This document shows positions 26,301 through 29,300 of a stretch of 64,000 nt of DNA, one piece after another. The position numbers were made by a program. The DNA lies in assembly GCF_053078305.1 (NCBI RefSeq), contig NZ_CP166879.1, one strand, 5' to 3'. Position 1 is the first letter of the stretch; the number at the start of each line of letters is the position of its first letter.

Positions 26301-29300
26301 CGGCCTATACCTACGCGCAAAAGTCGATTAACCCGCACGTCGGATTTATGGTCGGCTGGTCATCACTGCTGGATTATCTCTTTTTGCCGATGATCAACGT
26401 TTTGTTGGCGAAAATCTATCTCTCCGCCCTCTTCCCGGAAGTGCCGCCGTGGGTGTGGGTGGTAACCTTCGTCGCCATTTTAACCGCCGCGAATCTGAAG
26501 AGCGTCAACCTGGTCGCTAACTTCAATACCCTGTTTGTACTGGTGCAAATCTCCATCATGGTGGTGTTTATCTTCCTGGTGGTTCAGGGACTGCATAAAG
26601 GAGAAGGCGTTGGCACCGTCTGGTCACTTCAGCCGTTTATCAGCGAGAACGCGCACCTGATCCCGATTATTACCGGGGCGACGATTGTCTGTTTCTCGTT
26701 CCTCGGTTTCGATGCGGTGACCACGCTTTCGGAAGAGACGCCGGACGCCGCACGCGTGATCCCGAAAGCCATCTTCCTGACGGCGGTATACGGCGGCGTT
26801 ATCTTTATCGCTGCGTCGTTCTTTATGCAGCTGTTCTTTCCTGATATCAGCCGCTTTAAAGACCCGGACGCCGCACTGCCTGAAATTGCGCTGTACGTCG
26901 GCGGCAAGCTCTTCCAGTCGATTTTCCTCTGCACCACATTTGTGAACACATTGGCGTCTGGCCTGGCATCACATGCCAGCGTGTCGCGTCTGCTGTATGT
27001 GATGGGGCGTGACAATGTGTTTCCGGAGCGCGTGTTTGGCTATGTGCACCCAAAATGGCGGACTCCGGCACTGAACGTCATTATGGTCGGGATTGTCGCG
27101 ATGTCGGCATTGTTCTTTGATTTAGTCACCGCGACAGCATTGATTAACTTCGGTGCTCTGGTGGCGTTTACCTTCGTGAATCTGTCGGTGTTTAATCATT
27201 TCTGGCGGCGCAAAGGAATGAATAAAAGCTGGAAGGAACACTTCCACTATTTATTAATGCCGCTGGTTGGCGCGCTGACGGTGGGTGTGCTGTGGGTTAA
27301 CCTCGAGTCAACGTCACTGACACTCGGTCTGGTATGGGCTTCGTTAGGCGGCGCATATTTGTGGTATCTGATCCGCCGCTATCGCAAAGTGCCGCTGTAC
27401 GAAGGTGACAGAACGCCGGTGAGCGAAACGTAATAGTCGGATGCGCGGCGCATTATCCTGCCTGAGGGTAATGCACCGCGCCATTAACTATAAAAAGATG
27501 TATGACCCGGATCACGAGTGCTATCATCCGCCCTTATGCTTAGCGCATTAACCCCAGGGGCAAATAATGAACCACGATATCCCGCTAAAATATTTTGATA
27601 TTGCCGATGAGTACGCGACCGAATGCGCAGAGCCTGTCGCAGACGCTGAACGCACACCGCTGGCCCACTACTTCCAATTACTGCTCACCCGTTTGATGAA
27701 CAATGAAGAGATCAGCGAAGAAGCCCAACATGAAATGGCTGCTGAAGCGGGGATTAATCCCGTACGCATTGATGAGATCGCAGAGTTTTTGAATCAATGG
27801 GGTAATGAGTAATTATTTAATTGCAGACGATCGGTCAGTATCGTTGCCCGGATAAAGCGTTCACTCTGCATCCGGTTAAAATGACACGCATTGCAGCGTG
27901 CTTTAATGGGTTTCTCACGATCGTACCGCTCTGCTCCTCGCTAAGTTGTTCTGTGAGTTATAGTTATAGAGAAATCACGGGTACGAATGTTGAACAGATG
28001 GCGACGCCATCTGTTCAACGACCAACCACACGGCCCTCATTACGACCCCTGAACACAAACGGTAATGGCAAATGTCATTAAATATTAGTAAGATAGCCTC
28101 TTTACATAAAATCCCTTAATATTATGCGCCAGGTATTATCGTCTCTTTTGGTGATTGCTGGACTTGTGAGTGGTCAGGCAATCGCCGCGCCTGAATCCCC
28201 CCCGCATGCTGATATCCGCGACAGCGGTTTTGTCTATTGCGTCAGCGGGCAAGTCAACACCTTTAACCCATCCAAAGCGAGCAGTGGGTTAATTGTCGAT
28301 ACCCTTGCCGCCCAGTTTTATGATCGACTGCTGGATGTCGATCCCTATACCTATCGCCTGATGCCAGAACTTGCCGAAAGCTGGGAAGTACTCGACAACG
28401 GCGCGACCTATCGCTTCCACCTGCGTCGCGATGTCCCGTTTCAAAAAACCGCCTGGTTTACTCCCACTCGCAAAATGAATGCCGACGATGTGGTGTTTAC
28501 CTTCCAGCGAATTTTTGACCGCAACAACCCGTGGCATAACGTCAACGGCAGCAACTTCCCCTACTTCGACAGCCTGCAATTTGCCGATAACGTGAAAAGC
28601 GTCCGTAAACTGGATAATCATACCGTTGAGTTCCGTCTGGCTCAGCCGGATGCTTCTTTTTTGTGGCACCTCGCAACCCATTATGCTTCGGTCATGTCGG
28701 CAGAATATGCCCGGAAGTTAGAGAAAGAAGATCGCCAGGAGCAACTCGACCGTCAACCGGTCGGCACTGGACCGTATCAGTTGTCGGAATACCGCGCCGG
28801 GCAATTTATTCGCCTACAACGTCATGATGACTTCTGGCGCGGTAAACCGTTAATGCCGCAGGTGGTGGTGGATTTAGGCTCCGGCGGCACCGGACGTCTG
28901 TCGAAACTCCTGACCGGGGAATGCGACGTTCTGGCCTGGCCTGCTGCCAGCCAGCTATCCATTTTGCGTGACGACCCGCGCTTGCGTTTAACGCTGCGTC
29001 CTGGGATGAACGTCGCCTATCTGGCATTTAACACCGCCAAACCGCCACTAAATAATCCCGCTGTCCGCCATGCACTTGCACTGGCGATTAATAACCAGCG
29101 CCTGATGCAATCCATCTATTATGGTACGGCTGAAACGGCGGCCTCTATTTTACCGCGCGCCTCGTGGGCCTATGACAACGAGGCTAAAATTACTGAATAC
29201 AATCCGGCGAAATCGCGCGAACAGTTGAAGTCGTTGGGGCTGGAAAATTTAACGCTGAAACTGTGGGTGCCCACACGTTCGCAGGCGTGGAACCCCAGTC

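What the first reader, a model, noticed from the sequence alone, without database searches (positions are those of the whole stretch)
27958..27972. Identical 15-mer TTATAGTTATAGAGA upstream of sapA and of osmB
The same tandem-like 15-mer occurs at 27958-27972 and again at 49085-49099, both in 5' regions about 40-150 nt before a start codon. A single 15-mer coincidence is roughly expected by chance in 64 kb, so this is weak, but both copies being in promoter or leader regions is worth noting.
Basis: seen in the sequence. Interest (0 to 1): 0.15.

Follow-up and report, generated by a model that had tools for sequence, protein, structure and literature searches.

The report
Two promoter cores sharing 15 bases
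The repeated 15-base word is real, and each copy sits on the -10 box and transcription start point of an already mapped E. coli promoter (sapA and osmB), but the exact identity is best explained by chance between two look-alike promoter cores, so the finding is ordinary.

Summary
The window is E. coli. TTATAGTTATAGAGA occurs exactly twice, at 27958-27972 and 49085-49099, both on the + strand.

Both copies are core promoters.
- **sapA copy:** it spans -13 to +2 of the main published sapABCDF start site (window 27971; 659 reads; sigma70 and sigmaS ChIP binding).
- **osmB copy:** it spans -12 to +3 of the experimentally validated start site that lies inside a sigmaS ChIP-seq peak (window 49097).
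- **Shared anatomy:** the first TATAGT serves as the -10 hexamer in both. Initiation falls at base 14 of the word for sapA and base 13 for osmB.

Nothing supports a dedicated shared element.
- The flanking sequences are unrelated.
- E. albertii and E. marmotae carry a substitution in the sapA copy.
- Salmonella, Citrobacter and Enterobacter have an unrelated sapA upstream region.
- The osmB orthologues keep only a TAT..T-type -10 box, for example CTATACT in Enterobacter.

The numbers fit chance.
- The window holds ten direct repeats of 15 nt or more.
- A direct 15-mer repeat within its non-coding DNA is expected in roughly 10-40% of such windows.
- Roughly 5-15 promoter pairs per genome should share a core this long.

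Verdict: a real observation, already-mapped promoters, a coincidental identity, and low interest.

The parts
27958..27972 (+). 15-mer copy 1. It covers positions -13 to +2 of the sapABCDF promoter.
   Evidence: Exact match. The -50..+1 string printed in Cho 2014 Table S4 for TSS 1355287 ends ...GTGAGTTATAGTTATAGAG.
27959..27964 (+). -10 hexamer TATAGT of the sapA promoter, at -12 to -7.
   Evidence: It matches TATAAT at 5 of 6 positions, with A at -11 and T at -7. It lies the canonical 6 nt upstream of the mapped start site. No -35 match exists 16-18 bp upstream.
27971..27971 (+). Main sapA transcription start site (G).
   Evidence: Cho 2014 lists TSS 1355287 (U00096.2), minus strand in K-12, with 659 reads. 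It was seen in stationary phase, with glutamine as nitrogen source, and after heat shock. [quoted passage not shown] It lies 153 nt upstream of the ATG at 1355134.
27976..27976 (+). Minor alternative sapA start site (C), seen in exponential phase.
   Evidence: Kim 2012 supplement: TSS 1355282, 2 reads, 5' UTR of 148 nt. The printed string ends ...TTATAGTTATAGAGAAATC.
27989..28019 (+). 31-nt palindrome at +19 to +49 of the sapA leader.
   Evidence: It is perfect in this strain and folds as a 14-bp hairpin. The whole leader folds at -41.3 kcal/mol, z = -3.2. It has 2 mismatches in K-12 and more in E. albertii, with no compensating changes.
28124..29767 (+). sapA coding sequence.
   Evidence: ORF list and RefSeq annotation.
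49085..49099 (+). 15-mer copy 2. It covers positions -12 to +3 of the downstream osmB promoter.
   Evidence: Exact match. The validated TSS 1341393 lies 41 nt upstream of the osmB ATG at 1341352.
49086..49091 (+). -10 hexamer TATAGT of the osmB promoter, at -11 to -6. This is my assignment. Peano 2015 underline the overlapping TATTAT at 49083-49088 instead.
   Evidence: The promoter scan gives TTCACC-18-TATAGT. TATAGT aligns with Enterobacter TATACT (in GTCTATACTTAA) and Citrobacter TATCAT, at the same spacing from the conserved TTCCGTGAAT block. The alternative assignment is in Peano Table S3.
49062..49067 (+). -35-like hexamer TTCACC of the downstream osmB promoter.
   Evidence: Promoter scan, 9 of 12 matches with an 18-nt spacer.
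49097..49097 (+). osmB transcription start site (A).
   Evidence: [quoted passage not shown]
49138..49356 (+). osmB coding sequence.
   Evidence: ORF list and RefSeq annotation.

Best explanation
Each copy of TTATAGTTATAGAGA is the core of a separate sigma70-family promoter. In both, the first TATAGT is the -10 hexamer. The A/T-rich TATAG that follows is the discriminator, and RNA polymerase initiates at the A or G in the final AGA.

The copy at 49085-49099 belongs to the downstream, sigmaS-bound osmB promoter (osmBp2 in the literature, from memory). The copy at 27958-27972 belongs to the main promoter of the sapABCDF-ycjD operon.

The exact 15-nt identity is a coincidence. It is made more likely because both sequences are constrained to look like a -10 box with an A/T-rich discriminator and a purine start. 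It is not a dedicated shared regulatory site, a duplicated segment, or a mobile-element remnant.

Shown: the sequence identity, the positions of the published start sites, sigma binding, lack of conservation outside Escherichia, and the chance estimates. Inferred: that TATAGT is the hexamer actually used at each promoter, and that chance plus functional constraint accounts for the identity.
For: 1. Start sites fall at the same place in the word. The sapA TSS is at base 14. Cho 2014 reports it with 659 reads, and the printed upstream string ends in the 15-mer. The osmB validated TSS is at base 13 (with gene coordinates).
2. Polymerase binds at both places. Sigma70 and sigmaS ChIP signals are assigned to the sapA TSS. 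A sigmaS ChIP-seq peak covers the osmB promoter. RpoD holoenzyme SELEX peaks fall in both spacers.
3. The flanks of the two copies are unrelated. The 75-mers around each copy are single-copy in 5421 of 5426 E. coli genomes.
4. There is no conserved shared word.
   - E. albertii and E. marmotae have TTATAGTTATAAAGA upstream of sapA.
   - Salmonella, Citrobacter and Enterobacter have pspF directly upstream of sapA and an unalignable promoter region.
   - The osmB orthologues keep only the -10 box: CTATACTTAA in Enterobacter, CTATCATTAA in Citrobacter, GCTATAATAA in Kluyvera.
5. Chance is sufficient.
   - The window has 10 direct repeats of 15 nt or more.
   - Among 102 mapped TSSs, the chance of a shared run of length k in the core falls about 0.32-fold per base, reaching 4e-4 at k=10. 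Extrapolation gives about 1e-6 at k=15.
   - That corresponds to roughly 5-15 such promoter pairs in a genome with 3000-5000 start sites.
6. A third, independent occurrence lies in the ybaV-fadM spacer of Enterobacter sp. Bisph1 and Kosakonia cowanii. It again covers a -10-like hexamer: TATAAC on the fadM strand, conserved in E. coli, where the rest of the word differs.
Against: Two promoters 21 kb apart that share 15 nt in almost the same register relative to the start site are less likely than a generic repeat. My extrapolation gives only about 0.1-0.2 such same-window pairs per genome.

Both promoters show sigmaS binding. The sapA TSS was called in stationary phase, under nitrogen limitation and after heat shock, but not in exponential phase. 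SapC and SapF proteins rise after an osmotic upshift in O157. Some selected similarity of core-promoter behaviour therefore cannot be excluded.

The genome-wide count of the word in E. coli was not obtained (one search was truncated). The primary osmB promoter papers were not available to read.
Confidence: 0.85

Rival explanations
1. Selected convergence. The two promoters keep the same -13 to +2 sequence because that core confers a particular regulatory behaviour, for example sigmaS preference with stationary-phase or osmotic induction. On this reading sapABCDF (putrescine export) and osmB are co-regulated through the core promoter itself.
For: Both loci bind sigmaS in ChIP experiments. The sapA TSS is called in the stationary, glutamine and heat-shock sets but not the exponential set. 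The sapA promoter has no -35 match, which is common for sigmaS promoters (general knowledge). SapC and SapF proteins are induced after a water-activity downshift.
Against: The 'DS' sigma-binding class is the most common one among the TSS rows read from the Cho table, so it is not diagnostic. Neither copy has the sigmaS-favoured C at -13 when TATAGT is taken as the hexamer. E. albertii and E. marmotae tolerate a change in the sapA copy, and one E. coli lineage has a change at the osmB start base. Other genera run osmB from a different -10 word. The literature searched here gave no link between sapA and the RpoS regulon.
Confidence: 0.09
2. The 15-mer is the binding site of a shared transcription factor, such as a repressor sitting on the -10 box and start site of both promoters.
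For: The word is a tandem TTATAG TTATAG and sits at the same promoter position in both genes.
Against: The word is not conserved at the orthologous positions in other genera. The window holds no further near-copies above chance: one site at 3 mismatches against 0.43 expected. A 6-bp direct-repeat period puts the two half-sites on different faces of the helix, which is atypical for dimeric regulators (inference).
Confidence: 0.04
3. The two copies descend from one sequence, as a remnant of a duplication, gene conversion, or a dispersed or mobile repeat.
For: A degenerate REP-like element lies about 50 nt upstream of the sapA copy (sub-threshold naRNA4 hit).
Against: Identity stops abruptly at 15 nt with unrelated flanks. 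The osmB spacer has no REP-like or Rfam hit. Each 75-mer is single-copy per genome. The REP-like hit does not overlap the word.
Confidence: 0.01

Closest known systems
osmBp2, the sigmaS-dependent osmotic and stationary-phase promoter of E. coli osmB (Jung et al. 1990 and Boulanger et al. 2005, cited from memory and from reference lists; Peano et al. 2015, PMC4447067)
   Same: The copy at 49085-49099 is this promoter's -10 box, discriminator and start site. The validated TSS 1341393 maps to window 49097, inside a sigmaS ChIP-seq peak.
   Different: Nothing differs at this locus. The authors underline TATTAT (49083-49088) as the -10 box. Cross-genus alignment favours the overlapping TATAGT.
The sapABCDF-ycjD transcription unit promoter (TU_Ecoli-1475) in the genome-scale sigma-factor network of Cho et al. 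2014 (PMC3923258)
   Same: The copy at 27958-27972 ends 1 nt past this published start site. The site has 659 reads and sigma70 plus sigmaS binding.
   Different: This promoter is known only from high-throughput mapping. No targeted promoter study was found. The SELEX paper of Shimada 2014 guessed a different hexamer pair (ATGACA-15-TTTAAT, about 27881-27907) in the same spacer.
Consensus sigmaS -10 element (K)CTAYRCTTAA
   Same: Both have a TATA-type hexamer followed by an A/T-rich discriminator. The Enterobacter osmB orthologue has the exact consensus CTATACTTAA at the aligned position.
   Different: With TATAGT as the hexamer, the E. coli word has T rather than C at -13, G at the fifth hexamer position, and TAT rather than TAA after the hexamer.

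Membership tests
Sigma70-family core promoter (-10 element plus start site) | A hexamer resembling TATAAT, with A at position 2 and T at position 6 | tested here: met
   TATAGT (5 of 6) at 27959-27964 and 49086-49091.
Sigma70-family core promoter (-10 element plus start site) | An experimentally mapped 5'-triphosphate start site about 5-8 nt downstream of the hexamer | tested here: met
   Taken from published data, not from new experiments. The sapA TSS is 27971, 6 nt after the hexamer. The osmB TSS is 49097, 5 nt after the hexamer.
Sigma70-family core promoter (-10 element plus start site) | RNA polymerase holoenzyme or sigma occupancy at the locus | tested here: met
   Taken from published data. 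Sigma70 and sigmaS ChIP-chip binding is assigned to the sapA TSS. A sigmaS ChIP-seq peak covers osmB. RpoD holoenzyme SELEX peaks fall in both spacers.
Sigma70-family core promoter (-10 element plus start site) | A -35 hexamer resembling TTGACA, 16-18 bp upstream. This is not obligatory. | tested here: inconclusive
   osmB has TTCACC with an 18-nt spacer. sapA has no match on either strand.
SigmaS-selective promoter | C at -13 and a TAA-type discriminator | tested here: not met
   With TATAGT as the hexamer, both copies have T at -13 and TAT at -6 to -4. For osmB only, the alternative hexamer TATTAT does have C at -13.
SigmaS-selective promoter | Expression depends on rpoS | not testable with these tools
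   osmB is described as rpoS-dependent in the papers read. No data on sapA were found.
Shared transcription-factor binding motif (regulon signal) | The word is conserved at orthologous positions in related genera | tested here: not met
   The sapA upstream region is unalignable in Salmonella, Citrobacter and Enterobacter. The osmB orthologues keep only the -10 box. There is one substitution in E. albertii and E. marmotae.
Shared transcription-factor binding motif (regulon signal) | More copies or near-copies than chance, placed upstream of genes | tested here: inconclusive
   In the window there is one extra site at 3 mismatches against 0.43 expected.
Dispersed repeat or mobile-element remnant | Similarity extends beyond the core, and the element is multi-copy | tested here: not met
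   The flanks are unrelated. The 75-mers are single-copy per genome. No Rfam family overlaps the word.

The most novel reading that the evidence does not exclude
The 15-nt identity is not pure chance. It marks the sapABCDF promoter as an unrecognised sigmaS-type stress promoter with the same core as osmBp2. That would tie expression of the putrescine exporter to stationary phase and osmotic upshift through the core promoter sequence itself.
Probability: 0.1. Interest if true: 0.3.

Novelty: already known. Interest (0 to 1): 0.1.

Why it matters
It matters little. The result shows that a short exact repeat seen in two upstream regions can be fully explained by two independently mapped promoter cores. 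Exact 15-nt matches between -10 and start regions are expected several times per genome.

The one useful by-product is a sharper description of the sapABCDF promoter. It has a TATAGT -10 hexamer, no -35 match, a 153-nt structured leader, and was detected outside exponential growth. This makes its possible sigmaS or stress dependence easy to test.

Tried and rejected
- **Representative-genome scan for the exact word.** It stopped at 120 hits, almost all from unrelated A/T-rich taxa, and never reached E. coli. Two enteric hits turned out to lie in the ybaV-fadM spacer.
- **Primary osmB promoter paper (Boulanger 2005).** It is not held by DOI or PMC id.
- **Start-site supplements.** The ROSE paper, Adams 2021 and the Cappable-seq paper gave nothing for these loci, either absent or truncated.
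- **Consensus promoter scan.** It found nothing at the sapA copy, so the promoter call there rests on published start-site data.
- **Rfam.** No known RNA family overlaps either copy. The only hit is a sub-threshold REP-derived naRNA4 match upstream of the sapA promoter.
- **YmjA homologues as a route to sapA upstream regions in other genera.** This failed for Citrobacter amalonaticus and Raoultella, where ymjA is not next to sapA. SapA homologues were used instead.
- **Rejected explanations.** A mobile-element or duplication origin was rejected because the flanks are unrelated. A shared transcription-factor operator was rejected because the word is not conserved.

Full report
**Observation**

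TTATAGTTATAGAGA occurs exactly twice in the window, at 27958-27972 and 49085-49099, both on the + strand. Allowing three mismatches adds one site, at 7671, against 0.43 expected.

The window is Escherichia coli. The 901-nt and 551-nt stretches around the two copies match more than 5,400 complete E. coli genomes at 95-100% identity. They are annotated there as the ymjA-sapA and yciT-osmB spacers. Both copies are identical in K-12 MG1655, where no feature is annotated in either spacer. The sapA ATG is at 28124 and the osmB ATG at 49138.

**What the osmB copy is**

Peano et al. [quoted passage not shown] The osmB ATG is at 1341352 in the same coordinate system. The start site is therefore 41 nt upstream of the ATG, at window 49097, which is base 13 of the word.

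The consensus scan finds TTCACC-18-TATAGT, with the hexamer at 49086-49091. Peano's Table S3 underlines the overlapping TATTAT at 49083-49088 instead.

Alignment of the yciT-osmB spacer from Citrobacter, Enterobacter and Kluyvera (found through OsmB homologues) bears on this choice. E. coli TATAGT lines up with Enterobacter TATACT, which lies within GTCTATACTTAA, the textbook sigmaS -10 element. It also lines up with Citrobacter TATCAT. All three sit at the same spacing from an invariant TTCCGTGAAT block. I therefore read TATAGT as the hexamer. On either reading, the word covers the -10 box, the discriminator and the start site of the downstream osmB promoter (osmBp2 in the literature, from memory).

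**What the sapA copy is**

Cho et al. 2014 mapped 5'-triphosphate ends under four conditions. Their Table S4 lists a start site at 1355287 on the K-12 minus strand, with 659 reads. It was detected in stationary phase, with glutamine as nitrogen source, and after heat shock. The printed -50..+1 string ends ...GTGAGTTATAGTTATAGAG.

That places the start at window 27971, base 14 of the word, with TATAGT (27959-27964) at exactly -12 to -7. [quoted passage not shown] It is the strongest start site in that neighbourhood.

The exponential-phase data set of Kim et al. 2012 has only a 2-read start, 5 nt further downstream at window 27976. Shimada et al. 2014 found RpoD holoenzyme SELEX peaks in both spacers. 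No -35 match lies upstream of the sapA hexamer.

The 153-nt leader contains a 31-nt palindrome at 27989-28019 that folds as a strong hairpin. A degenerate REP-like element lies upstream of the promoter.

In summary, both copies are core promoters, used in the same way, with initiation one base apart within the word.

**Is the identity more than chance?**

- **Flanks.** The sequences on either side of the two copies are unrelated. The 75-mers around each copy are single-copy in 5,421 of 5,426 E. coli genomes. That excludes a duplication or a dispersed repeat.
- **Conservation at sapA.** E. ruysiae keeps the word. E. albertii and E. marmotae have TTATAGTTATAAAGA inside an otherwise well-conserved block. 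In Salmonella, Citrobacter and Enterobacter, pspF lies directly upstream of sapA, and the short spacer is not alignable with the Escherichia one. The sapA copy is therefore Escherichia-specific.
- **Conservation at osmB.** Only the -10 box survives between genera. One E. coli-like contig has a substitution at the start base. No shared word is conserved at both loci.
- **Repeats in the window.** The window contains ten maximal direct repeats of 15 nt or more, and several inverted ones.
- **Repeats in non-coding DNA.** Within about 10 kb of non-coding sequence, this is the only direct 15-mer pair. First- and third-order Markov models expect 0.06 and 0.14 such pairs. At k=12-14, the real sequence has about three times the model expectation even after subtracting the sub-words of this pair. 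The per-window probability is therefore roughly 0.1-0.4.
- **Repeats between promoter cores.** I used 102 start sites with at least 10 reads from Cho's table. The fraction of promoter pairs sharing an identical run of length k within the last 18 nt, allowing shifts up to 3 nt, is 0.037, 0.012, 0.0037, 0.0012 and 0.0004 for k=6-10. That is a fall of about 0.32-fold per base.
- **Extrapolation.** This gives about 1e-6 at k=15, or roughly 5-15 such promoter pairs in a genome with 3,000-5,000 start sites. About 0.1-0.2 of these would fall inside one 64-kb window. That is mildly lucky but unremarkable for a post hoc observation.

**A third occurrence**

The truncated scan of representative genomes returned mostly unrelated A/T-rich taxa. 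It also returned Enterobacter sp. Bisph1 and Kosakonia cowanii, where the word lies in the ybaV-fadM spacer about 20 nt upstream of the fadM ATG, on the opposite strand.

Aligned with E. coli K-12, only the hexamer TATAAC on the fadM strand is conserved. This is again a -10-like context. It fits the view that this low-complexity TATA-rich word tends to arise in promoter cores.

**Mechanism and rivals**

The best-supported reading (confidence about 0.85) is two independent sigma70-family promoter cores whose sequences coincide over 15 nt. The coincidence is helped by the shared constraints of a -10 box, an A/T-rich discriminator and a purine start.

A weaker alternative (about 0.09) is selected convergence of the core sequence for sigmaS- or stress-type behaviour.
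- In favour: both loci bind sigmaS, the sapA start was not called in exponential phase, and SapC and SapF proteins rise after an osmotic upshift in O157.
- Against: 'DS' is the commonest sigma-binding class among the rows read from Cho's table. The sigmaS-favoured C at -13 is absent. Close relatives tolerate changes in the word. No paper searched links sapA to the RpoS regulon.

A shared transcription-factor operator (about 0.04) and common descent (about 0.01) are not supported.

**Comparison with what is known, and verdict**

The osmB copy is part of a classical, experimentally validated promoter. The sapA copy coincides with a start site already published in a genome-scale map. Nothing new is needed to explain the observation.

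Interest is low.

The E. coli genome-wide count of the word and an all-against-all comparison of mapped promoter cores could not be run here. They are listed as the decisive checks.

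Noticed in passing
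window 49049-49057 and 49106-49114: A 9-nt perfect inverted repeat, TTCACGGAA ... TTCCGTGAA, brackets the downstream osmB core promoter at about -48 to -40 and +10 to +18. Both arms are invariant in E. coli, Citrobacter, Enterobacter and Kluyvera, while the -10 region between them varies. It could be a paired protein-binding site, or a stem in the longer transcript from the upstream osmB promoter. With no variation there is no covariation to decide between these.
   Followed up: partly
window 27989-28019: A perfect 31-nt palindrome, GTTGAACAGATGGCGACGCCATCTGTTCAAC, lies at +19 to +49 of the sapA leader and folds as a 14-bp hairpin with no T-run. It has 2 mismatches in K-12 and several uncompensated changes in E. 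albertii, so it does not look strongly constrained.
   Followed up: partly
window 27846-27912: A degenerate REP-like element lies between ymjA and the sapA promoter. It gives a sub-threshold Rfam hit to naRNA4 (29 bits against a gathering score of 59.5). This is the most variable part of the spacer among Escherichia species, with indels.
   Followed up: partly
window 27567-28123; loci L126, L127, L140, L150-L155: The ymjA-sapA adjacency seems confined to Escherichia. In Salmonella, in one of the two Citrobacter contigs and in Enterobacter, the sigma54 activator gene pspF lies directly upstream of sapA; the other Citrobacter contig has a DUF3828 gene there. In Citrobacter amalonaticus and Raoultella, ymjA sits elsewhere. 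In E. marmotae, pspF-ymjA-sapA are contiguous without the puu genes. The Escherichia sapA promoter and leader are unrelated in sequence to those of the other genera.
   Followed up: partly
L011 2235-2249 (Enterobacter sp. Bisph1); L068 2928-2942 (Kosakonia cowanii); L156 (E. coli K-12 ybaV-fadM spacer): The same 15-mer occurs in the ybaV-fadM spacer of two other enteric genera. It sits next to a conserved palindrome, GAGGTCATACCAG(T)TATGACCTC, which resembles a FadR operator (from memory, not tested). E. coli has ACTTATAACAACAA at the aligned position.
   Followed up: partly
window 48942-49007: Two conserved blocks lie further upstream of osmB. The first is TTAAGA(C/G)T(A/T)TTTACCTGT, which resembles an RcsB box. 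The second is AAAATTA(A/T)T(G/A)T(T/C)AGCGATATAACAGGAA, around the predicted TTAACA-17-TATTAT promoter. That pair is the hexamer pair listed for osmB in the RpoD SELEX study. This is probably the upstream, Rcs-dependent osmB promoter.
   Followed up: no
L136 (E. coli-like contig, GCA_046370985.1), osmB upstream: One lineage carries TTATAGTTATAGTGA, an A-to-T change at the mapped osmB start base.
   Followed up: no
window 8195/49916, 5229/15157, 14399/52793, 17619/45519 and others: Nine other direct repeats of 15-18 nt occur in the window. The longest is CGCCTGTTCTGGCGTCAT, at 8195 and 49916. They were not examined individually and serve here only as the background rate.
   Followed up: no
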